Shown: positions 2,626 to 52,938 of the stretch, piece by piece
Layout of the letters: every line of letters starts with the position of its first letter
Position numbering within the stretch: position 1 is the first letter of the stretch
DNA from: an uncultured virus (IMG/VR IMGVR_UViG_3300032093_000098)
Lineage: Duplodnaviria > Heunggongvirae > Uroviricota > Caudoviricetes
Direction: 5' to 3' (one strand)
IMG/VR virus record: IMGVR_UViG_3300032093_000098
Length of the DNA: 64,000 nt
Notes under the pieces: model-generated
The model's input: the letters and a program-made list of their open reading frames with translations, nothing else
Databases searched by the model: none
Told to the model about the DNA's origin: nothing
Translations under genes and position numbers: made by a program

Positions 2626-3627
2626 TTATTCTGAATCTTCCTCTACGGTGACGCCTACCTTTTTTGCCGCGCTTACGATCTCCTCGAAATTGTATCCGGC
2701 TTTTTCTATTTCAGCTCTCACTTCTTCGTTTTTCTTGGTTATGTTTTCTCCGTTGGCATATCGAGCAACAACCCTTGACCACTTGCTCACCTGAGACTTA
2801 ACTGAGTCTGAGTAATCTCTCGGCTGCTCAAATCCGTAAAGCAGGGTGAGGTAGTTGGAGTACTCTATCCCGAAATTCTTTTTAAACCTTCCGTCCTCGA
2901 GCATTATGAGAGGCTCAAGGGGAGGCTGTATCCCCGTCTCGTAGTAGCGGGTCATTACCCTCAGATCCTGCGTGTATTCAGCCTCGAGCTCTGCCGTTGG
3001 GCTAAACTCAAATCCCTGCATTCTAAGATCATCCTTGCAGATGTACACGATTTCCCCCGGGACAGACAGCCCCTTCATGTAGTGGAAAAGCTGCATCCGG
3101 TGGTGTTTTATTGGCTTTTCAGTCTTCTCCATAGCGTCCATCACGAACGATGAACAGGACTTGATTTCGAGAACCTTTGTTCTCAGTTTGACGTCTCCGT
3201 ACTTCTCGTAAAGCTTTTCGGCGATGTACAGAGACGCCGCTTGTATTGATGGCGGCAGGTAGCTTGATGAGATGTCGTGCTTGGCTCTCTCTATATCGAT
3301 GCTGCCACCGGCAAGGAAGTCGAGCCTGCCCGAGCATTTGATCAGACCCGGGTACTCATTGACTATCCTCTCTTGGGTGTTTTGGATCAGCCCCGCCCTT
3401 TCGAGCACGAATCTGACCACCCACTCTACGAGATTACCTGCCTCAAATTTCCTGAGGCTTCTCATGTTGGGTGGATTTGTTGGCGCGACAGCCTTCATCT
3501 TCAGATACCGGTCTACGAACGGTAACCCGATTTCAGATGCATAGCAGTAATCTCTTGGCTCAAGAGTTTTGTTTGGCGAGTATACGCACTCGTTCCAAAG
3601 GTGTGTAAAATTCCAAGGTGTATTCAT
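2626..3627 (-). CDS. PD-(D/E)XK nuclease (Cas4/YqaJ-like exonuclease)
   Basis: ASEIG, SGRLDFL, LEIKS and QLFHYM motifs in the expected order. Confidence 0.7.
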   Translation of the reverse strand: MNTPWNFTHLWNECVYSPNKTLEPRDYCYASEIGLPFVDRYLKMKAVAPTNPPNMRSLRKFEAGNLVEWVVRFVLERAGLIQNTQERIVNEYPGLIKCSGRLDFLAGGSIDIERAKHDISSSYLPPSIQAASLYIAEKLYEKYGDVKLRTKVLEIKSCSSFVMDAMEKTEKPIKHHRMQLFHYMKGLSVPGEIVYICKDDLRMQGFEFSPTAELEAEYTQDLRVMTRYYETGIQPPLEPLIMLEDGRFKKNFGIEYSNYLTLLYGFEQPRDYSDSVKSQVSKWSRVVARYANGENITKKNEEVRAEIEKAGYNFEEIVSAAKKVGVTVEEDSE

Positions 3628-8476: not shown

Positions 8477-8697
8477 GGCTTTATTGCAGGCCGCAGGATG
8501 GACGATGCATCTGCCTGCTTGGTTTATCCTGTGCGCAGATGAACGATCGGTTTATTGTGCCCGCAGATGCCTGATCAGGGTTATTCCATTGGTCTGAGGT
8601 GTGCGGGCAATCTACATCAGCGCAAGGTGCAGGATCTCTCCTCGGCACGGGTGCATTCTATGCACGCACAGCATTACGACACTATGCACGCATAGCT
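8477..8697. repeat. Degenerate ~28-bp repeats and a direct repeat
   Basis: GG(C)TTTAT..GCAG(G)ATG..GAT units at 8477, 8521 and 8549; CTATGCACGCA[CT]AGC twice at ~8658 and ~8682. Confidence 0.5.
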
Positions 8698-8933
8698 TTA
8701 TCTGCTATCCTCAATGAACTGACAGCTAGCTACTTATATCTACATGATTATCAGGGCTTTATGTGTTTCCATTCACATCGGTACTGTCTCTCCCCGACAG
8801 CTATCTGGCTGCAAATCAATTGGTTGGCAATATATTGATCGTCAGCACGTTGGCCTGACCCACCCCCTTTGCCAAGTCGACTTCGGAAGTTGCGGCGCCA
8901 GTGACGGTGTGGGGTAGACCCCCCGACCACAGA

Positions 8934-9060
8934 CAGAAAGTAATTTTTCCAACCAGGGACAGAAAGTAATTTTTCCAACCACAGACAGGAGGTGTTTTTT
9001 CGAGCCAGGGGCAGAAAGTAATTTTTCGAACCAGGAACAGAGCGGTGATTTTTGTACCGG
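8934..9060. repeat. 26-bp tandem repeat array (5 units)
   Basis: CAGAAAGTAATTTTTCCAACCAGGGA-like units start at 8934, 8960, 8986, 9012 and 9038. Confidence 0.85.
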
Positions 9061-9137
9061 TATTCACGGTGTATGTTTTTCGGCGGTTGATTCGTTGACC
9101 CGTATTGGGTCGCTGGCCAAAAAAAATCAATTTTTTT

Positions 9138-9168
9138 TTGCAAACAATGGCATTTTGTGCTATGTTTG
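9138..9168 (+). promoter_or_regulatory. Bacteroidota-type promoter
   Basis: TTGCAA...TATGTTTG just before ATG 9183. Confidence 0.6.
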
Positions 9169-9182
9169 TCGAAAATAATTTT

Positions 9183-9443
9183 ATGAACGGTAAGCCAAAG
9201 AAAAAGACTACCGAGGGAGCTAACCAGGGCATGTCTTGTAGCAAGGATGGTTGTGGCGCGGTAAAAACTAACTCAAGCGTTGGTACCAACCGTCAGAACG
9301 CTGCTGGGGCAAAAGGTTTATCTTCCCGCCCTCAGTACGGCTCGAAGGTAGTTACCCCTCGGCAGGCTGAGAAGAGGGCTCAGAAAATGGCAAAAATTAG
9401 GTCTTCGGCTCCGTCTGGCAAGTCAAACAGGGATAAATTTTAA
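9183..9443 (+). CDS. Small highly basic protein
   Basis: Likely start MNGKPKKK; K/R/S/A-rich. Confidence 0.55.
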   Translation: MNGKPKKKTTEGANQGMSCSKDGCGAVKTNSSVGTNRQNAAGAKGLSSRPQYGSKVVTPRQAEKRAQKMAKIRSSAPSGKSNRDKF

Positions 9444-9446
9444 AAC

Positions 9447-9716
9447 ATGAAGAAAGGAAACCCACAAAAGAAAGCGGAGAGGATCGACTCTCGGGCGTCA
9501 AAGAAAATGGACAAGGCCAAGTCTACATGGAATAAGGCAGAGGCCATGAGAAAGTCCCCCGTTGGATCCAACCGAACGTTTGCTCAGGAGGATTTCGGGA
9601 AAATGGCTCACCAGGTCAAGACCGAGAGGCTGTACGCAAAATCTGCAAGGCAGGCCGACAAGGCAAAAGAGTTGAAGACCCGGGCGGGGATCGTCAGAGC
9701 CGGGTCAAAGAAGTAA
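9447..9716 (+). CDS. Small highly basic protein
   Basis: K/A/R-rich ORF followed by a terminator. Confidence 0.6.
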   Translation: MKKGNPQKKAERIDSRASKKMDKAKSTWNKAEAMRKSPVGSNRTFAQEDFGKMAHQVKTERLYAKSARQADKAKELKTRAGIVRAGSKK

Positions 9717-9761
9717 AGGCTTTTTTCATAGTTGAATTAAGGATAGGTTTTGGTAGCAATG

Positions 9762-9790
9762 AAAAGCCCCTCAAACGTGAGGGGTTTTTT
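9762..9790. terminator. Intrinsic terminator, probably bidirectional
   Basis: AAAAGCCCCTCA-aacg-TGAGGGGTTTTTT between convergent genes. Confidence 0.8.
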
Positions 9791-9865
9791 CATCCATATC
9801 CACCCCAATCGGGCGTACTTGTGCAGGTTTGTCATCCATAGCCAATAGTTATCGGCAAATAAATT

Positions 9866-10066
9866 TTACTTCCTATCCCTCTCCGAAATGAACCTTGCAT
9901 CGCCTTGTAAATACTTTACTGCATCCCAAAGGTCATCTAATACTATTGTCCCAAGTGGTAGCAAATTACCTTTACCATCTTTTACACCTGACAAGTAAAT
10001 TGCAAGGTCACTTAGCGATTTTGTGTTAATCATTTTTCTTTCTTGAACTGGTTGTTTGTCTTCCAT
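9866..10066 (-). CDS. Hypothetical protein (cassette-like gene 1)
   Basis: ORF bounded by GTTATCGGC (9848) and GCCTATAAC (10085). Confidence 0.55.
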   Translation of the reverse strand: MEDKQPVQERKMINTKSLSDLAIYLSGVKDGKGNLLPLGTIVLDDLWDAVKYLQGDARFISERDRK

Positions 10067-10084
10067 AATCCGTAAAATTTATCA

Positions 10085-10218
10085 GCCTATAACATACGCT
10101 ATACAAAAGTGGGGCTGTGTGCCAAATCTGTATAGTTGTGCATCTAATTTGCTTTTGTGCGGTAAGCAAGGGTTATGCATCTTATTCCCCACCTTCGTAT
10201 AGCGTTTTGCCGTTAGCT
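10085..10218 (+). repeat. attC-like site
   Basis: CTATAAC...ACGCTATACAAAAGTGGGG / CCCCACCTTCGTATAGCGT...GTTAGCT imperfect inverted repeat. Confidence 0.65.
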
Positions 10219-10608
10219 TCAATTGCCTGCCAACGCACGTTTATCCGTTAAAAATTTCATTAATAAATAAACACCATCATTTACGCCTGACCAATAGAAA
10301 TCTTTATCTAAAGTCGGGTTTGCTTTGTGCCATTCATTTATAAAATCGTCAACAAGTTTTTTAGCTTCTTCATGGTTAGGTAACTTATTATGTTCTTCAA
10401 TAATTGCTGCCGTTAATTCACGAGCTTTACCAAGTGAAATATTTTCATTGTGAACGTGTCCCCAAACATCTTGAATAATCCAACAAGCAGGTAAATGTTT
10501 GTGATAAATCGGATTTAAAACTTGTCCCGATTTTTGGCGTTCCATTAATTCTTCTACGGTAATTTCTTTATCAAACCCGTATTTTTCGTGTAATTCTTCT
10601 ACTGTCAT
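10219..10608 (-). CDS. Hypothetical protein (cassette-like gene 2)
   Basis: ORF between two attC-like sites. Confidence 0.6.
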   Translation of the reverse strand: MTVEELHEKYGFDKEITVEELMERQKSGQVLNPIYHKHLPACWIIQDVWGHVHNENISLGKARELTAAIIEEHNKLPNHEEAKKLVDDFINEWHKANPTLDKDFYWSGVNDGVYLLMKFLTDKRALAGN

Positions 10609-10662
10609 TTGTTTATTTATTAATTGTTAATATTCATTCTAAAGCCAACGCAATGCAACTAA

Positions 10663-10726
10663 AGCTAACAGCACCTAAACCGCAACTCCGCTACGCTCCG
10701 CAGCGTTTAGCTGCAAACCGTTAGGT
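10663..10726 (+). repeat. attC-like site (short)
   Basis: AGCTAAC-aGCACCTAAACCGC..GCGTTTAGCTGC-aaacc-GTTAGGT. Confidence 0.7.
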
Positions 10727-10732
10727 GCAATG

Positions 10733-11119
10733 CTATCCGACTGACAACTCAAAATAATAATGACCTCCAGTTCGCCACATGACATATCTCATTTGAAAGT
10801 GAGTAAGCCACATATTAGATGTGATGGCTGCAATAGTTTCTTCGTTGCCACTCCATCCACCTGTATGTAATTCAAGTTTGTGTATGCCTTTGTATTTTCT
10901 GTGCAAAACAAATCCCCAATCTGACATATACCACCCATCAACAAGAACCTTTTTTACAAAAGTGAGCAAAGGCAAACTTTCATCTGGCTTGTAAGTTTTA
11001 ATAAATTGCAGCCATTCCTCCGTTGGATAACCTTCATCATCCAAAAGCACGGCAGGTAACACAGTGTTGCCGTCATTGCTGGCTTCTGTGCTATTTTGAA
11101 AGTTTTGTTCTGTATTCAT
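10733..11119 (-). CDS. Hypothetical protein (cassette-like gene 3)
   Basis: ELHTGGWSGNEE motif; N-terminus encoded inside the attC-like site. Confidence 0.65.
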   Translation of the reverse strand: MNTEQNFQNSTEASNDGNTVLPAVLLDDEGYPTEEWLQFIKTYKPDESLPLLTFVKKVLVDGWYMSDWGFVLHRKYKGIHKLELHTGGWSGNEETIAAITSNMWLTHFQMRYVMWRTGGHYYFELSVG

Positions 11120-11185
11120 CTTTCGTTTTTCAATTAAACATTTGTGCTAATAAACCGCCACTGCAGCAATGCCTTAACGTTAGTA
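11054..11185 (+). repeat. attC-like site (degenerate)
   Basis: AGGTAAC..GTTGCCGTCATTGCTGGC / GCCACTGCAGCAAT..GTTAGTA. Confidence 0.5.
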
Positions 11186-11203
11186 GCAAGCGGGCGGACA
11201 CTC

Positions 11204-11425
11204 TTAATCATTTGCTTTACTCGCTTCGTTAATTCTTTGGTTAATCATCTGGTAGATTTCATCTACAAGAGTATACTCTTTTTTGTTGAGTTCTCTGTAC
11301 TTCCAGATTTGTCTAATATCCTCTCTGATATTATGCAAAGCAATGTAGTACTCCTGTCCATTAATAGCATAGCGGAAGTCATCTCCATCTTCAGGAAGAT
11401 TAAACTCTAGTATTGCTTTACTCAT
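11204..11425 (-). CDS. Small phage protein (KAILEFNLPED type)
   Basis: Paralog of 18204..18407. Confidence 0.65.
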   Translation of the reverse strand: MSKAILEFNLPEDGDDFRYAINGQEYYIALHNIREDIRQIWKYRELNKKEYTLVDEIYQMINQRINEASKAND

Positions 11426-11546
11426 TTTTTTTTGAAATATAAAACTTGTCAAACAGATATGCTATTATTCTAATAAGAATTTGTAGAATTAAAAATATAC
11501 CAAACGGTAAACCGAACATAATAACTACTAATTCTTCTATTGTCAT
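11418..11546 (-). CDS. Small membrane peptide (42 aa, not in ORF track)
   Basis: MTIEELVVIMFGLPFGIFLILQILIRIIAYLF; overlaps both neighbours. Confidence 0.45.
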   Translation of the reverse strand: MTIEELVVIMFGLPFGIFLILQILIRIIAYLFDKFYISKKNE

Positions 11547-11815
11547 TTGTCACCTCCTTCATTTTTTGTAGTTAAAGTACATCTACTACCTGGTAAACTT
11601 GTTGTGTTAAGCATCTCAAGGTGATCCACAGAAGCAGTAAGTGTCACAGACTTGTGCTGGTCATCATGTGGAATACTCTTGTTGTCTCTAATCCTTTCAA
11701 GATTACCCAGTTGTTTTTTAAAGGCATCAAGTTCCGCACTTAGAATCATCTTTTCGTTTTGCAGGTTCTTGATATGCTCTTCACAATCTCTAATTGCAAA
11801 TTCTATCTTGTTCAT
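11543..11815 (-). CDS. Hypothetical coiled-coil protein
   Basis: ATGA-coupled ORF. Confidence 0.55.
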   Translation of the reverse strand: MNKIEFAIRDCEEHIKNLQNEKMILSAELDAFKKQLGNLERIRDNKSIPHDDQHKSVTLTASVDHLEMLNTTSLPGSRCTLTTKNEGGDK

Positions 11816-12429
11816 TGTTTAGATTGTTTAAGTGATTGAATAACTCTTTCTTTTGCTTTAGCTGATAAAACAGTACAATTCATAGCTTCCCTAACTTGTT
11901 CCTCTGTATATAGAGTTTCTTTGGCTTTGTTGTAACCTGCTTTGAATGCTTTTCTTATTAAAGAAGAATTTGGATATAAATCATCATTTAATGGATAAAA
12001 TTCCTCAGCCAACTTCTCTACATCTTCCACCATCTTCCCGACATCAGGAACATGGTTGACCATTTCGTTGACCTCACCAATATGGTTTATCATCTTGTTG
12101 CTGTCACCAAGTTGATCAATGACTTCATCCCATGCATCATAATTATTAACCGCATATACCTCGCTGGTGTCAACAGGATGATGAATTAGTTTGGCATAGG
12201 TTAATCCATTTACGCCTACTTCACCATTTTCCCATTCTGTAACCATATCAAAATTTATTTCTTTACCATCCCAATCAACTGAGTAATCACCATAGTCAAT
12301 GCAGGTTTTCACATCAGCGGGATGCAATGGAAATGTTCCCCACCAAGACTTGTAACCTATTGGTGTTTTTTCTGCTACTTTATGTTCCACCACCCACCCT
12401 TGGTCTGTTTTCACTAATGTTCCTTTCAT
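11812..12429 (-). CDS. Hypothetical mosaic protein with 10-aa repeats
   Basis: DQLGDSNKMI/NHIGEVNEMV/NHVPDVGKMV repeats. Confidence 0.6.
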   Translation of the reverse strand: MKGTLVKTDQGWVVEHKVAEKTPIGYKSWWGTFPLHPADVKTCIDYGDYSVDWDGKEINFDMVTEWENGEVGVNGLTYAKLIHHPVDTSEVYAVNNYDAWDEVIDQLGDSNKMINHIGEVNEMVNHVPDVGKMVEDVEKLAEEFYPLNDDLYPNSSLIRKAFKAGYNKAKETLYTEEQVREAMNCTVLSAKAKERVIQSLKQSKQ

Positions 12430-12665
12430 AGTTTTACCTCCTCATAAGTTGCTTCAAATATTTCCTTGTCAACTAACCACCTTTCCCCCTTGATCCCGAC
12501 ACACAAGTAGTGCTTGCCAAACTCGCCAATGTGATAAGGGTTTTCTAGTGTTTTGATGTATGGCAGGTCACCACCAAACTCTTCGGTGTGAAGGATAAAC
12601 CCATCCTCGTCCCCCTGTTCAAATAACTTAGCTTGTACTGTTGCTGTTTTTCTATACGTTTTCAT
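12426..12665 (-). CDS. Small conserved phage protein (PGDYG-like)
   Basis: YRK..V.A..IKTLE..GIKGE.W.V.KEIFEATYE pattern. Confidence 0.55.
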   Translation of the reverse strand: MKTYRKTATVQAKLFEQGDEDGFILHTEEFGGDLPYIKTLENPYHIGEFGKHYLCVGIKGERWLVDKEIFEATYEEVKL

Positions 12666-12976
12666 AGCTTTTGTATTTCTTGTTCTACTTGTTCTAAATA
12701 CTCCAACATATCATACCCCGTCATGTGGTCTGGGTGTTCACCTTCAAAGGTAAATTTGCGTTCTCCAATGGCATCAAAGGCAAAATATTCAGGTTTGTGG
12801 AGTCCATCAAAGATGCCTTTCATGTGCTTTACTGCTATCAAAGCACATTGCTTGGCTTGATATAAACTCATTTCTGTGCAATCACAATATCTTTTATTTG
12901 GAAAATGCTCAATACCACAATGCTCTGTATTGTACATCTTATCTACTAATTCTTCTGCATATTGTTTTGGATTCAT
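12662..12976 (-). CDS. Hypothetical protein
   Basis: ATGA-coupled ORF; AKQCALIAV motif. Confidence 0.6.
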   Translation of the reverse strand: MNPKQYAEELVDKMYNTEHCGIEHFPNKRYCDCTEMSLYQAKQCALIAVKHMKGIFDGLHKPEYFAFDAIGERKFTFEGEHPDHMTGYDMLEYLEQVEQEIQKL

Positions 12977-13197
12977 TTGTCACCTCCGTATGTTTCGTTG
13001 TAAAAATCTTCAATTGTCATTTCACCAACTTCATATATCTGCCTAAGATAGTTGTTAGTAAATTGAATCATCTGCTCCTTGTCCATTTCTTTGGCTTCTG
13101 CTAAACACTTTCTAAAATGCTCTCTTTCTTTTGGGTCAGAGAACTCAAGGAATGGTAATAAATGTGCAAATAACCACTCTACTGCTGTTTGTTTCAT
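12973..13197 (-). CDS. Hypothetical protein (MKQTAVEWL type)
   Basis: N-terminal motif typical of small Bacteroidota-phage proteins. Confidence 0.6.
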   Translation of the reverse strand: MKQTAVEWLFAHLLPFLEFSDPKEREHFRKCLAEAKEMDKEQMIQFTNNYLRQIYEVGEMTIEDFYNETYGGDK

Positions 13198-13199
13198 AA

Positions 13200-13469
13200 T
13201 TATTTGTATTTTCTTATTAGTTCAAACGTCTTTTTTATATCCGTCCAATTGAGATGTATCTCCTCGCCACGCCTAACAGGATACCACGCTATGGTGTATC
13301 CGTGGTTAGCGTTGTAGAAGTCTTCCCTCTTTATAACATTGCCGTTAACCTTGTTAAGATATATCCAAGGTATGTTTCCTACAAGCTCAATGTTGACTCC
13401 TATCTTCTGAAGTCTCCTTACGAAAACACTCAGTTCATTTTCATCCTCCTGTTTAAGAAAATTTTTCAT
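13200..13469 (-). CDS. Hypothetical protein
   Basis: Likely start MKNFLKQ; GNIPWIYL motif. Confidence 0.55.
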   Translation of the reverse strand: MKNFLKQEDENELSVFVRRLQKIGVNIELVGNIPWIYLNKVNGNVIKREDFYNANHGYTIAWYPVRRGEEIHLNWTDIKKTFELIRKYK

Positions 13470-13519
13470 TTTTCGGTGCAAGGGTACTGCATATATATAT
13501 CTATCCGTTAGCGGCAACC

Positions 13520-13807
13520 TCACAGAAACTCCTCCACCTTGTGAGTGTCTAACCCAGTATAAGTGTGTATTAGTTTCCGTAAAGCCAAACCGCAACTTTC
13601 TGCCATTTTCATTCTATCCTCAACTGACATACCATCGTAATCTTGGTTGTCATACATTTTGTCCATCAATGCAGTTTGGAAAATAATAGTAGCGTTCATG
13701 AAATCCCTGTTGGAATAATTAGGCTTGTTTTCATTCCCTTTTGCTTCTGCATTTTGCGTTAGCAAGTCGTTTGCTATTGCTTCAAGTGTTGTTTTATAAC
13801 TTCTCAT
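13520..13807 (-). CDS. Hypothetical protein (cassette-like gene 4)
   Basis: Bounded by GTTAGCGGC (13507) and GCCGCCAAC (13834). Confidence 0.6.
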   Translation of the reverse strand: MRSYKTTLEAIANDLLTQNAEAKGNENKPNYSNRDFMNATIIFQTALMDKMYDNQDYDGMSVEDRMKMAESCGLALRKLIHTYTGLDTHKVEEFL

Positions 13808-13928
13808 TGTGTATTAATTTGTGAAAAAGGGCAGCCGCCAACAAGTGCTATGCAATATGGCGGCTGACGTGCTTCGGTTAAACATTTTACTTAATTCAAC
13901 TGTGGTGCACGGATTGCTGTTTGCTGAC

Positions 13929-14957
13929 TCACCAAATGTCTTCCATTCCGGTTTCGACGAAGTAGCTCCTTCCTGCGTTTTCGTTTTTACCCTGAGCTGG
14001 CAGGAATTCGGCGTAAGCGACGATCATCGGATCGTTTTCAAGCTGGGAGTTGTAGGTGATGACTTTTGTTTCTGGGTTATACGAGTCAACAGTTCCGGGA
14101 ACCAACGTAATGGTGTTGTCCTGGGATGCGTTGAATCCGGCTGTTGCTGAAGCTCCGTAGGCGTTTGTGCCCGGTTGGTTGTACAGGTTCCACCTGAACG
14201 CAAACGATGGGCAAATTTTACCGTAAGAAGCAATTTTGTTTGGGGATCCCGTTGCCGGCTCGCCATTAATGTGGAAAATACCCTTGATCTGATTATCGGA
14301 CACCTTTTCAATGTCCATGGCGATACTTGTAACGTGAGTTTGCGGATCTACGACAACGCTATTGAACGTCATCCTTGTGTTGAACGCGATCTGCTCTTCC
14401 GTCATCCCGGTTATGGCCTTAAGCTGCTCAAGGCTCCATCTCACGAACTGGCGCTTGCTCGTCCATGTCCGAATGGTGCCTGATGAAGACCTTGTGATGG
14501 TCTTCTGAATTCGAAAAAACACACCTGGTCTTACAGGAGGGCTTGCCGGATCGCTCGGAAGCTTTGTCAGCGGATCCACATTGAGGCCAACGTCAGAAAT
14601 GACGTCAAACGAATGCCCCGTCTCGTTGCTGTACAGCTCCACTTTTTGCCACGGAAACCAGTGACCGCCCGTGCCGGTCTCCCTCGGCTTGGTGGTGACA
14701 ATCATGTTCTCGTCAATCGAAACTATGTCGTGACCATATGCATGCAAGTAGTTGGACAAAAGATTCAGCGTGTACGCCCCAAACAGCTCGGATGTGGTGG
14801 ACACATACGTTTTTACCGATACGCTTTTGGGGGACACGGTAAAGTCGTGTGTCTCTTCGACAATCAGCGCCCGGTTGGTGCGGGTTTGGATTTGACCCTC
14901 GTACCTTGCGCATTCGTCGGGGAGCTGAAGAAGCTCTAACGCTTTTTGAATACTCAT
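13929..14957 (-). CDS. Hypothetical protein, beta-rich, unknown function
   Basis: 342-aa ORF with AT-rich leader. Confidence 0.7.
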   Translation of the reverse strand: MSIQKALELLQLPDECARYEGQIQTRTNRALIVEETHDFTVSPKSVSVKTYVSTTSELFGAYTLNLLSNYLHAYGHDIVSIDENMIVTTKPRETGTGGHWFPWQKVELYSNETGHSFDVISDVGLNVDPLTKLPSDPASPPVRPGVFFRIQKTITRSSSGTIRTWTSKRQFVRWSLEQLKAITGMTEEQIAFNTRMTFNSVVVDPQTHVTSIAMDIEKVSDNQIKGIFHINGEPATGSPNKIASYGKICPSFAFRWNLYNQPGTNAYGASATAGFNASQDNTITLVPGTVDSYNPETKVITYNSQLENDPMIVAYAEFLPAQGKNENAGRSYFVETGMEDIW

Positions 14958-14976
14958 TTTATTTTGTTTTTATGGA

Positions 14977-15168
14977 TTAACGCTGTTTTTTCGACTCTAC
15001 GATATCCCACCTGTAGGAATACCAGTCTCTGTTCATGCCAAGCATTTTATCAAGCTTCCAGCAGTCGTTGAGACACTTGCTTTTCGCCTGCTCTGGGTTT
15101 TTCGCTCTTGTTTTCGCGTAGTGCACCCTATTGGCGCCGTCCCACACGGTTATTTCGTAATTAATCAT
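14977..15168 (-). CDS. Hypothetical protein
   Basis: ATGA-coupled ORF. Confidence 0.5.
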   Translation of the reverse strand: MINYEITVWDGANRVHYAKTRAKNPEQAKSKCLNDCWKLDKMLGMNRDWYSYRWDIVESKKQR

Positions 15169-15560
15169 TCTTCGCCCTCCCCTGATATCAATACGTCCGT
15201 ACCGTCAGGAATAGGCGTTCCATTCGCTTCGGCCTCTGCGATCGCTTTTTTGACGTTTCGAATCGCCATTGTTATGGCGTACCAAAACTCCAGCGGCAGC
15301 CCCGACAGCTCCGCAAGCGTCTCGTCCATTGTGGCCAAGGCTCTTACATACTCGTCCCCGCCGTTTACCTGGCCAAGAGTGGTGTATAGGTGTTTGAACT
15401 TAGTTTCGAGCTTCGAAACCAGATTGTTTGATGACATTTTCAGGTCGTGAGTAAAAATGCCCTTGGAAACGCCCTCATCATGGCAGTGGGTGTATATTTG
15501 CTGTGCAGCAAGACCTGTTACGACAACCCGATAGGATCTGATAGCTTGTTCTTTTGTCAT
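15165..15560 (-). CDS. Hypothetical protein
   Basis: Likely start MTKEQ. Confidence 0.55.
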   Translation of the reverse strand: MTKEQAIRSYRVVVTGLAAQQIYTHCHDEGVSKGIFTHDLKMSSNNLVSKLETKFKHLYTTLGQVNGGDEYVRALATMDETLAELSGLPLEFWYAITMAIRNVKKAIAEAEANGTPIPDGTDVLISGEGEE

Positions 15561-18432: not shown

Positions 18433-18750
18433 CTATCTATCCCGTCCTCCGGCCAGTAAATTCTCTTTCTTCTTCAATCCGGCATCAGTGCTCGCGTTTT
18501 TTATTTTCTCAATCCTGTCCAATGAACCGCATAGCCACAGGTACATGTCGTTCCCGGTAAGCTCGTACAGCACTTCGTTTATCTTTCGCATAAGAACCCT
18601 CTCATGCCATTTTATAAGCATGCTTGGCTTGTGAGACGGATCTGACTGGATTGTGAGAAGGTGTCTTCTTAGCTCTCGATAAAAAACAACGTCTGGCTTT
18701 CCAGTTTTGTTTGCCGGAATTTCTGGATGCTTTTTTTCTAACCGGCTCAT
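18433..18750 (-). CDS. Hypothetical protein
   Basis: ATGA-coupled ORF. Confidence 0.5.
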   Translation of the reverse strand: MSRLEKKHPEIPANKTGKPDVVFYRELRRHLLTIQSDPSHKPSMLIKWHERVLMRKINEVLYELTGNDMYLWLCGSLDRIEKIKNASTDAGLKKKENLLAGGRDR

Positions 18751-19166
18751 TGTCCAAGGTATTTGGAAATTGCCACCATTTCCGATGTTGGGAACGTTGA
18801 TATCAGCCCCCTGATCATTTTTCTTCTTGCGGGGACGCAGAGATAATCGTTTTGAACAGCCCGCTTTGCGTAAATAACGGTCGAGTGATCCCTGCCAACA
18901 ATTGTCCCAATAGACTTCAAACTATCTCCGTAGCACACTTTTGAAAACGCCATAAAAACCTGCCTCGGGAACACCACTTCCTCGTTTTTCTTTTTGCTTT
19001 TTATTTGGTCTTGCGAGACGCCAAAATGAGAGCAAATTCGATCAAGCATCCATTCCTTTGTTCCGCCGTTTTCAAGATCGTGTATTTGATCGTACGCTAA
19101 TTTAAATTCCTCAACGCACTCTTCTTTTACCATTGACAAAAGGTCTTCGTATTTGTATCGCTTCAT
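18747..19166 (-). CDS. DnaA C-terminal HTH domain protein
   Basis: ICSHFGVSQDQIKSKKK..VVFPRQVFM..SLKSIG..GRDHSTVIYA = DnaA domain IV pattern; likely start MKRYKY. Confidence 0.85.
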   Translation of the reverse strand: MKRYKYEDLLSMVKEECVEEFKLAYDQIHDLENGGTKEWMLDRICSHFGVSQDQIKSKKKNEEVVFPRQVFMAFSKVCYGDSLKSIGTIVGRDHSTVIYAKRAVQNDYLCVPARRKMIRGLISTFPTSEMVAISKYLGQ

Positions 19167-19198
19167 TTTTATTATTGATTTGTTAAAAAAAAAGGAAT

Positions 19199-19217
19199 GG
19201 GGCGGTTTTTCCGCCCC
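19199..19217 (-). terminator. Terminator-like hairpin after SSB
   Basis: GGGGCGG-aaaaa-CCGCCCC followed by a U-rich tract. Confidence 0.5.
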
Positions 19218-19224
19218 AAAATGA

Positions 19225-19854
19225 TCAGAACGGGAGGTCATCCTCGTGTTGAGAATCCGTCGCAGGCTCTGCTTGTTTTTCTGTTTTTCCAATGACTGTC
19301 GCTTCCATCTTGGGAATGAAAACTTTCGAAAGATAGTCTTCAAAAAATTGCTGGCGATCAGTGTCGTCCCAAACAATTTCACCCTTCACCTTTACCTGAA
19401 CCATTTGCGGCATTCCCTTTGGATCGTCTTTTGTCCAATACCAATCAACGTTGTTTTCTCCTTGACGGATGTACAGCATTGTTTTTTTCTGCCCATCAAT
19501 CTCTTTCATCCACGGAGCAAGAGTAATGCTTTTTGACAGATCAATGTTTGGCATGCAGAGAAAGAATCCGGAAGAGTACCGGGAAGACCACGGCATCTGA
19601 ACTTGAAACTTTTCTCCAATATCTTCAAGGACAATGCACAGTTGCGGGCCGTATCCCTTATCTGAGCTTCTCTTGAACACGTCTACAATTCTGCCCGTAA
19701 CCGAAGGGTACCTTTTTTCGTACCAGATTCTCGATCCGTCTTTTGACCGGCACTCAACGGCGCCTTCTGTTCCTTTTTCAACTCGTTTTGCAATACGTCC
19801 TTCAGATATGCTGAGGTACGTTTTGTCTGAACCACTGTTTGTGTCTAATCCCAT
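19225..19854 (-). CDS. Single-stranded DNA-binding protein (putative)
   Basis: Acidic tail ending EDDLPF; adjacent to primase-helicase. Confidence 0.65.
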   Translation of the reverse strand: MGLDTNSGSDKTYLSISEGRIAKRVEKGTEGAVECRSKDGSRIWYEKRYPSVTGRIVDVFKRSSDKGYGPQLCIVLEDIGEKFQVQMPWSSRYSSGFFLCMPNIDLSKSITLAPWMKEIDGQKKTMLYIRQGENNVDWYWTKDDPKGMPQMVQVKVKGEIVWDDTDRQQFFEDYLSKVFIPKMEATVIGKTEKQAEPATDSQHEDDLPF

Positions 19855-50600: not shown

Positions 50601-52441
50601 TTTACATGAGCGGTCAGGTTACGGAAAATAAGTACGAAGACAACGAATTCAAGCGCGACATCACTCCAGAAGAGTACGACATGATGACCAAAGTTCTTCC
50701 TAAGAATATGCAGGAAGACGCAGCCCGTGTGCGTGGACTGTTGTTCGGTGGTAAGAAAAAAGGACAGGCTTCTAAGGGTATTCCAAGAACATCTAAAGAG
50801 TTCGCAGGGAATGTGGGAGAGACGATCGACCGCATCAAGGCTGCAACATCGGAGGACGGGGCAACGCTCAACCTCGATGGTACAACTTACGAAGACGGAG
50901 GTCTTGTGGTTCCTGCCGGTTCATTGAACGTGGCCCAGGATGAGGTTACTGCCGAGGGCTTGTTTGACTTCTTGAAGGACAACGAGGAGAATATTTCCAG
51001 CGACATATTCAAGATTGGACTTTACAAGTTCCCAGACCGTCCAGAGGTTTCTTATGACTTGAACATCGTGATTCCAAGGGAGTACCGTGATGTGGCCTTG
51101 AAGTTTGGTGAGTTATCTGGACAGGAATCACTGTTTGACCTTGACACATTCGAGAACATCAAGACCGGATCGGACGGTAAGAATCCACGCAAATTCACGG
51201 CCCAAGAGCTTGCTGAGATTGCTAAGGATTTGTCTGAGGGCAGACTTCCAAAGATTGTTGGAGGCAAGGGACAGCCATCAATGATGAAGCGTACTCCAGC
51301 CTTGGCATCCGTAGAGAGTACGGCTAAGGCGTTGGGAGGGATGAAGGATGACGCTGAAAATATATTTAGTAAATACAAAATACAAGGGTATGGTAGTAGA
51401 TTTACATATCCAAACAAGATAAATATAAGCAGAATATCTGATTTAGAGTATCTAAAAGAATGGGTAAAGGGCGTTAACCCTAATTTGGATATTGATTTTG
51501 AAAAAAATGACCCCGAATATAGGAGTATCGCAGACAAGCAGATTGATTGGAATATAAAAGAGCTTTCAAGCATACTTAGTAATGCAAAAAATAAGGGTTA
51601 TATTATTGGCAAGAGGGTAATAAATACGGATGGTACTCCAATAGATATAAAAAACATAGGTCATTCTTTTTCGGTAGATGATTCTAATTTGCCGTCTTTT
51701 GGTAATTCCGATAAGTTAAAAACAAAAACAACTGTAAAAATACCATTTGAGGCTATAAATTTAGAGGCTACCACTGATAGGTTTGCGTATTATGGTAACT
51801 CGGAGTATGAGATTGTTGTTAAGCCTAATGAAAAACTTGAACTATTAAAGTACGAAGAAGTGGACAGAAGTAATAGATATGCTTCTAAGCCAATAACAGA
51901 AAAAGAAATCTCAAGTGGTTTCTATAGAATAGAAAAACAAGTCTCCGAAGCCTACCACAAAGCCAAAGCAGACGGCAGCAATCCTGAACTTGTAAAAGCA
52001 GTAGAAGATTTAATCGGCAAGCCAAAACAAGGACAGCCATCAAGACTAAAGCGCACCCCAGCCCAAATCAGACAAGCTGTAGAAGATGGGGTAGATGCAG
52101 TTGAAGCAGCGATCGCTGAGAGCATGGATCCACAGCAGGCCGTTGACGAGAACATCTCAAACCAGGAATGGTACGGTGATTTGAGTGCTGCCCAGAAGGA
52201 ACAGTTGAATGAAATCCTTCAAGATGAGTTCGGCGCATCAGTTAGGGAGAAAAATGCCGTCAACGACAAGGCCAGGGCGGTGTCTGATTTGTGGGCGGAA
52301 GGAAGCCGCGAATCTAAGAAGAGAATAACTGATATTTTGGAAGATGAGCCTGAGCTTTCGTACATTTACGCCAATTATCCAAAAATACTAAAACAGCTTG
52401 AGTCGGCTGGGTTGATAACAAAAACAGACGGATGTCCATGA
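44660..52441 (+). CDS. Giant internal virion (polyvalent) protein
   Basis: 2593 aa; Gly/Ala hydrophobic segments, HEGIH zincin motif (48428-48442), GQ[PA]S-delimited modules. Confidence 0.75.
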   Translation: MAVPANVKYYEYLKSKKLDVPPTYDSFQKTLSDKEKAMKYYSYLSSKKSQGMDVDIPASFDSFYNTLNPKGASSEVGAASGEDLNAPQQPSAPSFTGAKGMKPRGIQPALKQEAEKPRPTKPYQDIMPKMEEAPSETTQAAVPAPISFAEQEQEKANESIRRGYLPSNPAIVNDRVISEVEKVREEEGMEPIEDVLSRRVALNQIDDVMETFGLSSEQVDDYMENSARDIDSMALDQITQAAGMDSEFLEYKKSLKTGDAISPIYQGRMRESQKKVFDAAMGDYWNFLARSNYGAYKDNKDKYDALKAKTAEERTTEDERWLKLTEDRATALYSAAAKKEAIGLKDNISQKLKSVAGVDYGKYLSATKDFNAKASALEKEHAAGKINDQQYEEKYNAAYDELEAIKRDSGVNDSTMATLNEIDDLTSKYGRTLLKDVAVKTSGFSETRSYDKWLEELEEKKRNSEDYERLWKESGAFGKAVLGGYEFTRKLGGSVFNSAMDVAGGLVRVLDAADAKGLYQGVGYDFSDQMYDKIMNMKAVTESKRFDADADSVLYNLADMTGNGFGSVVAFGLGGSAALALKAPAAAGTFVTGYLMAESSTYQELMDSGVVSSQEATLISNAVAPVVASIELLVPDSKVIQGYVRPAIRAAVVQGKPLLKAVDESLQTYAKSFGKEAFEEGLGYVGEVSAKNIVDAVGGYDYFNQEFSLKDLVINSLGGGLTGGLMNFFSYSSTPSPVKERAVLEMAENGQQIIDSHKNERTISDLRTTLSKPMEDLRGLKAHPNWNNLDRSKQARVFSISQQIRSLEESSVQDPIVKAQVGRLKAEQQEILSLGANGMDAKAVGVSTDKQRVFIGDQQAFFYINEDGDYEIEYNDGRSVVVSKGEGAAEKVRAMGIRADDGEVAAMNKENQNTLITPRLERGATVDYNGKNATVNSYKEKDGKVVYVNLTTEDGRTLQIREGQAGVGQELLNNLNNLPYDQKDQTRISGEVGKGQEPVTTQPVESTSEEAPATGGVLQAQEEIDSVRQRINAIEAARREGRILEDEKPNELKGLKAREKELLSQETKPSGQKLTVGSKIQWDVFGNESMNEWTVAEETTTKGGQPAVRLTRFIEQGVAEGGGVAGYTQEHIVPIADLQGKPAAEAAPQTQGQEEVIAPQATEEAAPKTEEKPTRKTRLAKLFEVSEGEEAVPAIEQALSETGIKVEVMDDAEYNEDNRIKDSQGRGSEGMFVADDGTIILNRDKIKGEWGKTIVFHEGIHPVVNIIRNTDPKRYKAIVEGLKAEAARNNDVARVAADIAASEEYQRRGPESIEDETVVETMARVATGDVNIDKFEPTFREKFIEFMNDIAKALGLRPILTNSPRVEVKRLADQINKMLNEGGKISDVVGKKNVGEFQNKITLTDTNSVFSNTSSQARFEMKFLEDSEDFTKLIEEGRVVHNASLDDINGETVVIHNPDNFSTGEIKFRGKDLVKGEGGVYFVLLYDDVWASGKKSSASQLASLINESLQKSTDGKGRLVLVKGDASKNLTSVKGAKALMGVMEILADDGLIPLSAFRKALNIAGKKYGINFDGRNDAKSIHKDIQDKFMNVSNSSFERRGDFVRDVIDAIANQNVLSKEAIAEIAESIGAKRKMTTFSKASILDSVAYATSERMLRDIPNSHVYAVIETSSKVKPEFVGKHESYPWHIVTEDGSKPILYILKDRPFYNDAFVAAKSTEKVKEGERFGDVSRAGLAQRGMGLAKVETKPTGQPSKGIKRGRNLVKDTYYEAGLTEDKNDYVFFHVSSAPKASIMKGIDSTKYTSLRTAREEKGLQYGVASYYTRPEDGERMVGGEKYAVRVPKGKVYPIDSDPMGYGEKAEENVPQGTPFRGEAVKREIADMAKKDGYQMIVGEWSYSRTGKPAGEIPEFRADALVPLKPTAEKPTSFTSNAEKGMERIPFPSQQSEQAKQELENIASEVRDIMSSKKKFSSKEYQLADSVYMSGQVTENKYEDNEFKRDITPEEYDMMTKVLPKNMQEDAARVRGLLFGGKKKGQASKGIPRTSKEFAGNVGETIDRIKAATSEDGATLNLDGTTYEDGGLVVPAGSLNVAQDEVTAEGLFDFLKDNEENISSDIFKIGLYKFPDRPEVSYDLNIVIPREYRDVALKFGELSGQESLFDLDTFENIKTGSDGKNPRKFTAQELAEIAKDLSEGRLPKIVGGKGQPSMMKRTPALASVESTAKALGGMKDDAENIFSKYKIQGYGSRFTYPNKINISRISDLEYLKEWVKGVNPNLDIDFEKNDPEYRSIADKQIDWNIKELSSILSNAKNKGYIIGKRVINTDGTPIDIKNIGHSFSVDDSNLPSFGNSDKLKTKTTVKIPFEAINLEATTDRFAYYGNSEYEIVVKPNEKLELLKYEEVDRSNRYASKPITEKEISSGFYRIEKQVSEAYHKAKADGSNPELVKAVEDLIGKPKQGQPSRLKRTPAQIRQAVEDGVDAVEAAIAESMDPQQAVDENISNQEWYGDLSAAQKEQLNEILQDEFGASVREKNAVNDKARAVSDLWAEGSRESKKRITDILEDEPELSYIYANYPKILKQLESAGLITKTDGCP
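47598..47732 (+). CDS. Overprinted 44-aa basic protein in the +1 frame of the giant ORF
   Basis: MIKKTKQGYQVKSEKGKNLSQPNLSKAQAKKRLQQVEFFKHKKK; AT-rich leader AATTATTAAATAATTTAAATAATCTACCTT. Confidence 0.6.
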   Translation: MIKKTKQGYQVKSEKGKNLSQPNLSKAQAKKRLQQVEFFKHKKK

Positions 52442-52938
52442 TTAAAAAACTTGACAAAAAGGTTGTAGATCTTCTTCTCCCTCGGATGAAAGATGAATAC
52501 AGCGCATTTTACTTTTATCGCGCCGCCAGCAATTGGTGCCAAGGGGTTGGCTTTTTTCAAGCCGCCAAGTTTTTTGCCGCTGAGTCGCAGGACGAGCTTG
52601 AGCATGCAAAGAAAATTGAAAAATACATCACCGATTGGAACGTAATCCCGGAACTGCCGACTGTAAATCGCCCGCAGATTGAGTTTTCGGGCATCATGGA
52701 GGTGTTGGAAGAGGCTTACAAGCTTGAATACGACCTGTACGAGGCTTACGAAGAAACGTCTAAGAAGCTTTTTGAGATTGATCTGTGCGCGTTTGATTTT
52801 CTCCAACCGTTGCGATTGATCCAGAACGATTCCGTATCCGAGTATAGCGACAAGCTGAACCTGCTCGAAGGAGTAGACGTTGCCGATAAGTTCAAAGTTT
52901 TATTGTTGGAAGAAAAGTTGTTTTCCGTAAATGGCTAA
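52438..52938 (+). CDS. Non-haem ferritin (FtnA-like)
   Basis: E..A...Y...NW..G..AAKFF..ES.DE.EHA.K..Y; LE; FDFL..Q; ATGA overlap with the upstream stop. Confidence 0.85.
   Translation: MIKKLDKKVVDLLLPRMKDEYSAFYFYRAASNWCQGVGFFQAAKFFAAESQDELEHAKKIEKYITDWNVIPELPTVNRPQIEFSGIMEVLEEAYKLEYDLYEAYEETSKKLFEIDLCAFDFLQPLRLIQNDSVSEYSDKLNLLEGVDVADKFKVLLLEEKLFSVNG

What the first reader, a model, noticed from the sequence alone, without database searches (positions are those of the whole stretch)
9848..13900. Integron-like gene cassettes in a phage, all antisense, with self-complementary ends
Seen: attC-like inverted repeats at 10085-10218, 10663-10726 and 11054-11185, plus half-sites at 9848, 13507 and 13834. 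Each one-gene unit starts with GTT.. and ends with its near reverse complement: GTTATCGGC/GCCTATAAC (8/9), GTTAGCTTC/AAAGCTAAC (8/9), GTTAGGTGC/GCAGGTAAC (7/9), GTTAGCGGC/GCCGCCAAC (8/9). Known: this R'/R'' complementarity is the signature of excisable integron cassettes. Unusual: the ORFs are on the opposite strand to normal cassettes, one starts inside the site, and no integrase is in the window. Inference: the phage gains or shuffles accessory genes through attC recombination by a host or trans-acting integrase.
Basis: partly seen in the sequence, partly recalled or inferred. Interest (0 to 1): 0.82.

Follow-up and report, generated by a model that had tools for sequence, protein, structure and literature searches.

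The report
Integron-like gene cassettes in a phage
A phage of Bacteroidota carries small accessory genes separated by folded DNA sites like those integrons use to swap genes; the same sites fill long arrays in host chromosomes, but in phages the genes face the other way.

Summary
Three intergenic elements (10081-10224, 10657-10732, 11048-11191, all minus strand) belong to one structured repeat family of about 145 nt, bounded by TAAC...GTTA. I modelled the family from 80 copies. The bases just outside the boxes pair across each gene, not within a site: 77 of 117 junctions are perfect, against 2.3% of random pairs. That is the footprint of integron cassettes.

A 98%-identical phage (L003) carries different cassettes between the same flanks. 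Another phage (L019) shares exactly one unit, 10215-9848.

In Bacteroidota chromosomes the sites form co-oriented arrays, one spanning about 490 kb. Both arrays whose ends I examined lie near a Xer/IntI-like recombinase, and the genes lie on the opposite strand. In phages the genes lie on the better-folding strand.

No recombinase is in the window. The half-sites at 13507 and 13834 are only weak remnants. Recombination itself is inferred, not shown. This scan noted the same system before on other DNA.

The parts
9848..9856 (-). Terminal box (...TAAC on the minus strand; GTT... on the plus strand). It marks the end of the last cassette and of the variable region, at the end of the array where the recombinase lies in other arrays.
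   Evidence: Pairs 8/9 with the outer box of site A. L019 homology ends at 9848. Contigs of 3 of 4 runs start at 9848. L003 has its own box at the same place, pairing 9/9 with its last site.
9866..10066 (-). Cassette gene, 66 aa, no family match
   Evidence: ORF list; no Pfam or PHROG hit. Found with site A in L019 at 94% identity.
10081..10224 (-). Site A: full-length attC-like element (TAAC at 10215-10212, GTTA at 10093-10090 read on the minus strand)
   Evidence: 108.6 bits, E 1.3e-24. Its copy in L003 is 74.6% identical with compensatory stem changes. The minus strand folds at -21.3 against -16.7 kcal/mol.
10219..10608 (-). Cassette gene, 129 aa, no family match; its stop lies 4 nt before the TAAC box of site A
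10657..10732 (-). Site B: short variant of the element. Both arms and boxes are kept; the middle of about 70 nt is absent.
   Evidence: 38 bits, E 3.5e-7, model positions 1-145 with an internal deletion; fold
10733..11119 (-). Cassette gene, 128 aa. Its start codon lies inside site C and it reads through that site's GTTA box.
   Evidence: The C-terminal half recurs in L054 at 90% identity.
11048..11191 (-). Site C: divergent full-length element with weakened stems
   Evidence: 49.8 bits, E 4.3e-10
11204..13807 (-). Block of about ten small, mostly overlapping minus-strand ORFs with low GC and no detectable sites. It is part of the region replaced in L003.
   Evidence: only three weak PHROG hits of unknown function
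13485..13519 (-).
   Evidence: 13.6 bits, E 0.0019, in a 581-nt search only; not significant window-wide
13823..13916 (-). The upstream breakpoint with L003 lies at 13901/13902.
   Evidence: 11.2 bits
9762..9789 (.). Terminator-like hairpin between the convergent plus-strand genes and the cassette block; conserved in L003

Best explanation
The block 9848-11191 is the site-bearing end of a phage cassette array, built from a Bacteroidota-wide family of attC-like recombination sites.

Site anatomy. Each site is about 145 nt. On its better-folding strand (the window's minus strand) it reads:
- a TAAC box;
- a 5-6 nt unpaired spacer;
- a stem of about 16 bp with two conserved G-T wobbles;
- a middle of about 70 nt;
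- the returning stem;
- a 1-2 nt spacer;
- a GTTA box.

The 3-5 bases outside the boxes are private to each gene and pair across the gene. This is expected if a cassette circularises and re-inserts by one strand exchange at AA|C (G|TT on the window's plus strand), as in integrons.

Shown:
- the family, its structure and its covariation;
- the cross-gene pairing;
- unit-wise differences between near-identical phages;
- co-oriented arrays in host chromosomes, with a dedicated Xer/IntI-like tyrosine recombinase 2-3 kb past the array end in the two examined and beside the array of one phage contig;
- the inverted gene orientation in phages.

Inferred:
- that this recombinase cuts these sites on the folded single strand;
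- that the window phage, which has no recombinase, exchanges cassettes using a host or co-infecting phage enzyme;
- that in phages the unit is 'site plus the gene behind it'.

The hairpin with its T-rich tail may also act as a terminator between cassettes.
For: Family and structure.
- 216 complete copies; 160 of 196 unique cores measure 125-126 nt from TAAC to GTTA.
- 7 of 16 predicted pairs show compensatory changes, for example GC 34 / UA 28 / CG 9.
- 68 of 151 genomes sampled from the phylum of G002 have a hit at E <= 1e-6.

Cassette footprint. The 5-nt flanks are perfectly complementary across the gene in 77 of 117 junctions. The controls are 5 of 345 within one site, 3 of 117 for the outer flanks and 2.3% of random pairs. 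The effect holds in viral loci (33 of 54 on the 3 variable nt) and in genome loci (46 of 63). L003 shows 4 of 4 junctions pairing over 9-10 consecutive nt.

Exchange.
- L003 is 98.4% identical up to 13902 and about 98% identical again below the terminal box (BLAST match from 9858), with other cassettes between.
- L019 shares 10215-9848 at 94% and nothing outside it.
- Contigs of 3 of 4 runs start at 9848.
- In 198 viral pairs with similar cores, identity is 0.70-1.00 at +1..+10 beyond GTTA. It falls to 0.27-0.37, the baseline, immediately before TAAC.

Enzyme and arrays.
- 251 hits in 78 bacterial loci.
- At least 150 co-oriented hits over 3,475,733-3,967,546 in G002.
- 0 of 91 multi-site loci have sites on both strands.
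- Recombinases lie at the same end of the arrays in G002, G003 and phage contig G156. They are 46% and 38% identical, and their best NCBIfam hits are XerA/integron integrase and integron integrase.

Strand. The same strand folds better in 133 of 146 viral and 151 of 182 genome copies, although genes lie on it in phages and opposite it in bacteria.

Cargo. Of 47 phage cassette ORFs, 8 are N6/N4 DNA methylases.
Against: - No recombination product was seen. The public runs are held only as contigs, and none showed a circle or a clean cassette deletion.
- The recombinases score below the curated cut-offs (168-178 bits against 265 for integron integrase; 201-211 against 220 for the XerA/integron-integrase model). 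The phage one has 270 aa, shorter than the 315-position integron-integrase model. The IntI-specific insertion is probably absent; I did not test this residue by residue.
- No conserved extrahelical bases are seen. The asymmetry lies in the spacers instead.
- In the window itself the pairing is imperfect (8/9, 8/9, 7/9).
- At the level of gene clusters, linkage of a gene to the site before it is not clearly stronger than to the site after it (4 of 13 against 1 of 12). Bacterial copies show no flank asymmetry.
- About 2.6 kb of the replaced block has no sites, and the upstream breakpoint (13901/13902) is not at a GTT box.
- Homologous recombination between the 145-nt repeats could also shuffle the genes.
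Confidence: 0.75

Rival explanations
1. The repeats are regulatory cassettes (a terminator hairpin, perhaps with a promoter or leader), like the PeSL motifs of T4-type phages. Genes are shuffled by ordinary homologous recombination between them, and no site-specific enzyme is involved.
For: - Each site is a strong hairpin followed by a T-rich stretch (mean 5.2 T in 9 nt; 63 of 146 viral copies have 6 or more).
- In phages the sites sit between co-directional genes, with the stable strand in the transcript.
- The 17 nt after GTTA are conserved up to the start codon.
- Gene-to-site linkage is weak in both directions.
- PeSL papers exist (PMC2839356, PMC4122927; search listing and start of abstracts only).
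Against: - The same strand is the stable one in bacterial arrays, where it is antisense to the genes. Selection therefore does not act on the mRNA there.
- Cross-gene pairing of private flanks (77 of 117 against 2.3%) has no role in a terminator.
- A dedicated recombinase lies at one fixed end of the three arrays examined.
- Conservation stops sharply at TAAC.
- Arrays are strictly co-oriented (0 of 91 mixed).
Confidence: 0.12
2. These are ordinary integron cassettes (a CALIN) picked up from a host and lying in the normal gene-then-attC orientation. The 'antisense' reading would come only from reading a near-palindrome on the wrong strand.
For: - The box complementarity is symmetric, so it cannot give an orientation by itself (my reading).
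- Gene stops abut the TAAC box of the next site, as cassette ORFs abut attC.
- The longer arm is the one next to the upstream gene's stop. That is where I recall the extra bases of classical attC sites to lie (recalled, not tested).
- Phage CALINs are in print (PMC9892861, section 3.4 read).
Against: - Bacterial arrays of this same family have genes on the other strand relative to the site.
- The better-folding strand is the same in both settings.
- ORFs that start inside a site and read out through GTTA would be split by a crossover at that box.
- Conservation runs on beyond GTTA but stops at TAAC.
- The recombinases are not canonical IntI.
- Papers read in passages treat Bacteroidota as poor in integrons. 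That suggests the standard attC model does not see this family.
Confidence: 0.08
3. Chance palindromes or plain intrinsic terminators with no shared origin.
For: Single 9-mer matches at up to one mismatch are at chance level. The hairpin at 13823-13875 is terminator-like.
Against: Model scores of 38-109 bits in the window; hundreds of homologous copies with covariation.
Confidence: 0.01

Closest known systems
Integrons and their attC sites, especially sedentary chromosomal integrons with uniform attC sites (the Vibrio superintegron is recalled as the textbook case)
   Same: - Imperfect palindromes bounded by ...AAC and GTT... boxes.
- Private box flanks that pair across each cassette.
- One strand folds better than the other.
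- Co-oriented arrays of single-gene units lie near a tyrosine recombinase.
- Defence-type cargo in the bacterial arrays: DarT, GmrSD, methylase fragments.
   Different: - The recombinase is Xer-like and falls below the integron-integrase cut-off.
- The spacers are asymmetric (5-6 nt against 1-2 nt), and no conserved extrahelical bases are seen.
- Length is fixed at 125-126 nt.
- In phages the genes are inverted and sometimes start inside the site.
CALINs (attC clusters without an integrase) in phage genomes; Qi et al. 2023, PMC9892861
   Same: Integrase-less clusters of recombination sites in virulent phages, with DNA methylases among the cargo (section 3.4 read; here).
   Different: Those were found with the standard attC tools: 17 CALINs in a screen of 10,705 phage genomes. 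Most had cassettes in the usual direction, and 5 of 6 tested sites were recombined by IntI1. The family here gave no match in the INPHARED phage collection. It is very common in uncultured Bacteroidota phages and has the genes inverted.
rAID-1 arrays of Bacteroidales; Ross et al. 2019 preprint 10.1101/471110, and PMC12247911
   Same: [quoted passage not shown] The bacterial arrays here have that layout, though with 2-3 kb between the recombinase and the first detected site. Some loci are labelled Bacteroidales.
   Different: Identity with rAID-1 was not tested. I had no rAID-1 sequence, and the motif figure is in a supplement I could not open. rAID-1 is described for gut Bacteroidales and immunity genes. 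No phage counterpart is mentioned in the passages I read ('phage' occurs 0 times in PMC12247911).
PeSL promoter/stem-loop cassettes of T4-type phages (PMC2839356, PMC4122927)
   Same: Repeated intergenic hairpin motifs flank small accessory genes in hypervariable regions of phage genomes and are linked to modular gene shuffling.
   Different: PeSLs are thought to work by homologous recombination and carry promoters (titles and starts of abstracts only). The family here has cross-gene pairing of flanks, a dedicated recombinase, and host chromosomal arrays.

Membership tests
Integron attC site | Imperfect inverted repeat bounded by an inverse core ending in AAC and a core starting with GTT | tested here: met
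   TAAC and GTT are invariant in the 80-sequence alignment (partly by the search pattern). 179 of 204 copies end in GTTA and 25 in GTTG.
Integron attC site | The outer box bases of a cassette pair with each other across the gene (the site is restored in the circular cassette) | tested here: met
   77 of 117 junctions perfect over 5 nt, against 5 of 345 within one site and 2.3% of random pairs.
Integron attC site | Conserved secondary structure rather than conserved sequence, with one strand favoured | tested here: met
   7 of 16 pairs show compensatory changes. The model strand is more stable in 284 of 328 copies.
Integron attC site | Extrahelical bases in the L box (feature recalled from the integron literature) | tested here: not met
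   The consensus stem is continuous. The asymmetry is a 5-6 nt against 1-2 nt spacer next to the boxes.
Integron attC site | Recognised by the IntegronFinder or HattCI attC models | not testable with these tools
   Neither model is on hand. Rfam holds no match for the region, Flavo-1 included.
Integron (complete) | IntI-type integrase reaching the integron-integrase model cut-off | tested here: not met
   None in the window. Array-linked enzymes elsewhere score 151-178 bits against a cut-off of 265.
Integron (complete) | Cassette ORFs on the strand opposite the recombining (better-folding) strand | tested here: not met
   Met in bacterial arrays (45 of 64 with both flanks antisense to the model strand). 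Not met in phages (44 of 57 with sense flanks) or in the window.
CALIN | Two or more attC sites with no integrase nearby (definition as used in PMC9892861) | tested here: inconclusive
   Three sites and no integrase. Whether they count as attC depends on the untestable model criterion.
rAID-1 | XerD-like recombinase at least 44% identical to the B. fragilis reference, 5' of two or more co-directional genes of GC 41% or lower | not testable with these tools
   The layout is met in L250 and L251. The reference protein was not available. The window has no recombinase.
Rfam Flavo-1 and other curated RNA families | Match to the covariance model | tested here: not met
   0 matches at gathering score in 64 kb. 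Nothing relevant at E <= 10 in 9500-14200.

The most novel reading that the evidence does not exclude
Bacteroidota and their phages share a phylum-wide gene-capture system that works like an integron. It is run by a Xer-like recombinase and uses its own 145-nt folded sites. Phages keep a separate, mirror-image cassette pool: the gene lies on the folding strand, and the site lies ahead of the gene and sometimes supplies its start codon. That pool is stocked with counter-defence genes such as orphan methylases. Phages trade these cassettes during infection, using the host's or another phage's recombinase.
Probability: 0.45. Interest if true: 0.88.

Novelty: new variant of a known kind. Interest (0 to 1): 0.78.

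Why it matters
Integrons are the textbook route by which bacteria stockpile and reshuffle single genes, and Bacteroidota are treated as nearly devoid of them (passages in PMC9024848 and the 2024 preprint). Here one site family is found in 68 of 151 sampled genomes of that phylum. One of its arrays spans about 490 kb. It also occurs in more than a hundred viral contigs.

If the inferred recombination is real, three things follow:
- It explains how these phages swap small accessory genes, methylases among them, at fixed points.
- It links the host and phage gene pools through one enzyme.
- The mirror-image orientation makes testable how strand choice and cassette expression are coupled.

It may also give the repeats of rAID-1 arrays a mechanism; the authors call rAID biogenesis an open question.

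Tried and rejected
- Rfam at gathering score and at E <= 10: no relevant family; Flavo-1 absent.
- BLAST of 8500-15500 against the INPHARED phages: no match.
- The window's whole genome is not held.
- Public runs were available only as contigs. They showed branch points but no cassette circles or clean deletions. The many short 'joints' in 11800-13200 have short sides and probably come from other organisms.
- I first argued the orientation from arm length, using the recalled position of extrahelical bases. I dropped this when the bacterial arrays gave a direct comparison.
- The first k-mer linkage count (21 right-only against 1 left-only) proved non-independent. The cluster-level recount is inconclusive (4 of 13 against 1 of 12).
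- A partner box for site C's outer flank was sought in the window. Only the site's own box was found, at chance frequency.
- Pfam and PHROGs give nothing for the three cassette proteins.
- Literature searches for a description of this family found phage CALINs and rAID-1, but nothing on these sites or on inverted phage cassettes.
- bioRxiv supplements, including the rAID-1 motif figure, could not be seen.

Full report
CONTEXT. The window is a tailed phage. PHROG hits name a large terminase, a portal, a virion structural protein, a tail fibre and a primase-helicase. Pfam adds a BT4734-like primase domain. The stretch 10-14 kb has a GC content of 34-40%, against 45-50% around it. It holds only small minus-strand ORFs. 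It lies between a 342-aa gene and a hairpin terminator shared with convergent plus-strand genes.

THE OBSERVATION. Site A has 19-nt arms that are 89% complementary. Sites A and B fold more stably on the minus strand (-21.3 against -16.7 and -15.6 against -12.4 kcal/mol).

Read on the minus strand, A, B and two copies in a related phage share one plan: a private 3-5 nt flank, then TAAC, a spacer, a stem, a middle part, the returning stem, a short spacer, GTTA, and another private flank.

A pattern taken from that plan matched at least 120 stretches of viral contigs. With one more motif added, it matched at least 122 stretches of genome contigs, nearly all labelled Bacteroidota. Of the 196 unique complete cores, 160 measure 125-126 nt.

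I aligned 80 copies that are less than 85% alike. That alignment gives 16 consensus pairs, 7 of them with compensatory changes. Several columns are invariant only because the search pattern fixed them.

The covariance model built from the alignment finds exactly three sites in the window, all on the minus strand:
- A: 108.6 bits
- C: 49.8 bits
- B: 38 bits, with the middle deleted

I treat them as possible remnants.

THE CASSETTE FOOTPRINT. I located 345 sites with both boxes using a profile search. From these I took 117 neighbouring co-oriented pairs lying 60-3000 nt apart. I then compared the 5 nt after GTTA of the first site with the 5 nt before TAAC of the second:
- across the gene: perfectly complementary in 77 of 117
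- within a single site: 5 of 345
- outer flanks of a pair: 3 of 117
- random pairs: 2.3%

The effect is present in viral loci and in bacterial loci alike. Some of the 40 imperfect junctions may hide short sites that the profile missed.

In the window the three junctions are imperfect (8/9, 8/9, 7/9). A lone 9-mer match is at chance level. The window's case therefore rests on the family.

EXCHANGE BETWEEN PHAGES. L001 and L002 are the same phage. L003 is 98.4% identical from 18000 down to 13902. It becomes about 98% identical again below the terminal box (the BLAST match starts at 9858). Between these points it carries 2.7 kb of other DNA instead of 4.0 kb. That DNA holds four sites whose junctions, including the terminal box, all pair over 9-10 consecutive nt.

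L019 is otherwise unrelated over the stretch compared. It shares 10215-9848 at 94% identity: the TAAC of site A, the site, the 66-aa gene and the terminal box, and nothing beyond either end. Contigs from 3 of the 4 public runs laid begin at 9848.

Among 198 pairs of viral sites with similar cores, identity is 0.70-1.00 for ten bases beyond GTTA. It drops to the background of 0.27-0.37 immediately before TAAC. Breakpoints therefore cluster at the TAAC end.

HOST ARRAYS AND THE ENZYME. In 78 bacterial loci the model finds 251 hits (a minority are weaker opposite-strand echoes of the same palindromic sites), in co-oriented rows. No locus with two or more sites has them on both strands (0 of 91).

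One Bacteroidota chromosome (G002) has at least 150 scored hits, all on one strand, between 3,475,733 and 3,967,546. Only 150 of about 1,700 candidates were scored there.

In G002 and G003 a tyrosine recombinase of 363-371 aa lies 2-3 kb beyond the last detected site, at the same end of the array. The two enzymes are 46% identical. Their best NCBIfam models are 'XerA / integron integrase' and 'integron integrase', both below the curated cut-offs.

A 180-kb viral contig (G156, locus L252) has at least 13 co-oriented sites. A 270-aa recombinase of the same kind lies at the same end relative to site polarity. It is 38% identical to the G002 enzyme.

In a sample of 151 genomes from G002's phylum, 68 have a hit at E <= 1e-6.

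ORIENTATION. The box pairing is symmetric and cannot orient a site. The bacterial arrays can.

In those arrays the ORFs lie on the strand opposite the model strand, and their stops abut the GTTA side. This is the classical gene-then-site layout. Of 64 bacterial sites, 45 have both flanks antisense and 1 has both sense. Of 57 viral sites, 44 have at least one sense flank and none antisense, 2 have an antisense flank and 11 are unclear.

The same strand is the better-folding one in 133 of 146 viral copies and 151 of 182 bacterial copies. The preference therefore cannot be an mRNA property in bacteria.

In phages several ORFs start inside a site and read out through GTTA. Examples are the window's 128-aa ORF and ORFs in L003, L012, L018 and L100.

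Together, this makes 'site plus the gene behind it' the likely phage unit, with exchange at AA|C on the folding strand. Cluster-level linkage does not settle the question (4 of 13 against 1 of 12).

WHAT IS NOT SHOWN. No recombination product was seen. The enzyme is not a canonical IntI. I found no conserved extrahelical bases. The 2.6 kb from 11204 to 13807 has no sites, and the upstream breakpoint is not at a box. Homologous recombination between the repeats remains a partial alternative.

CARGO. The three window proteins have no family. Among 47 ORFs lying between sites in viral loci:
- 8 are N6/N4 DNA methylases
- 1 is Rad52-like
- 1 is a resolvase
- 1 is an R2K ATP-grasp protein
- 36 have no Pfam match

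The bacterial cassettes that I looked at include DarT, GmrSD and methylase fragments.

LITERATURE.
- Qi et al. 2023 (PMC9892861; abstract, section 3.4 and passages read) report 17 CALINs from a screen of 10,705 phage genomes. IntI1 recombined 5 of the 6 phage sites they tested.
- IntegronFinder 2 (PMC9024848; passages) reports only In0 elements and one complete integron in Bacteroidetes.
- A 2024 preprint (10.1101/2024.07.02.601686; passage) names Bacteroidota as an example of clades previously found without integrons.
- Ross et al. 2019 (10.1101/471110; passages) describe rAID-1 arrays of Bacteroidales, with a XerD-like recombinase and integron-like intergenic repeats.
- A 2025 preprint (PMC12247911; passages) calls rAID biogenesis unresolved.

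The bacterial arrays here may be that system or a sister of it; I could not test this. My five searches found no description of this site family or of inverted phage cassettes.

Earlier notes of this scan on other genomes reached the same general reading. They are not independent evidence.

VERDICT. This is a real and widespread integron-like cassette system of Bacteroidota and their phages. The window holds a small array without a recombinase, in the inverted, phage-type orientation.

Noticed in passing
G002:C1:3475733-3967546 (locus L251 covers its end): A single Bacteroidota chromosome carries a co-oriented array of these sites spanning about 490 kb. At least 150 hits were scored out of about 1,700 candidates, and a Xer-like recombinase lies past its high end.
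   Followed up: partly
L252:5257-12860 (viral contig G156): A 180-kb viral contig has at least 13 co-oriented sites, including 66-106 nt short forms. Small genes lie on the same strand, and a 270-aa Xer-like recombinase sits at the array end, so this phage array has its own enzyme.
   Followed up: partly
alignment A2, columns about 40-115; window 11100-11160 (minus strand): The middle of the element holds up to three copies of a motif of about 12 nt (ACAAATGTT.AA-like), spaced about 20 nt apart. The motif is also present in divergent site C and in L003. It could be a binding site for an accessory protein or a promoter part.
   Followed up: no
window 9840-9860; L003:11725-11750; L019:3355-3375: After the terminal TAAC box, the next 7 nt form a near-palindrome with the box's private bases. 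They differ between the window and L003 at just the matching positions, as if a minimal box-to-box site travelled with the last cassette.
   Followed up: partly
L003:9501-9580 and L003:9550-9795: A short ORF of about 27 codons starts in the middle of a site, reads through its GTTA box, and ends in an ATGA overlap with the start of the next gene. This may be a leader peptide with translational coupling.
   Followed up: no
window 12974-13140 and 11304-11470: In the contig lay-down these two short stretches have much higher summed depth than their neighbours in several runs (for example 225 against about 97, and 204 against about 13). These small genes or parts of them seem to be shared with other abundant organisms.
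   Followed up: no
window 52432-52938, 61880-63964, 18747-19382, 2626-3627: Other phage genes of note: a ferritin-like protein between two giant ORFs, a subtilase S8 with a CARDB domain, a protein with a DnaA C-terminal helix-turn-helix, and a 333-aa protein hitting a PHROG labelled CRISPR/Cas-associated.
   Followed up: no
L007:9520-9600 (62%-identical relative of the flanking gene): More distant relatives (L004-L007) have ordinary-GC genes at this position. They show only one hairpin that starts with the family's first 11 letters and has no GTTA end. The model gave no hit in L004 or L007.
   Followed up: partly
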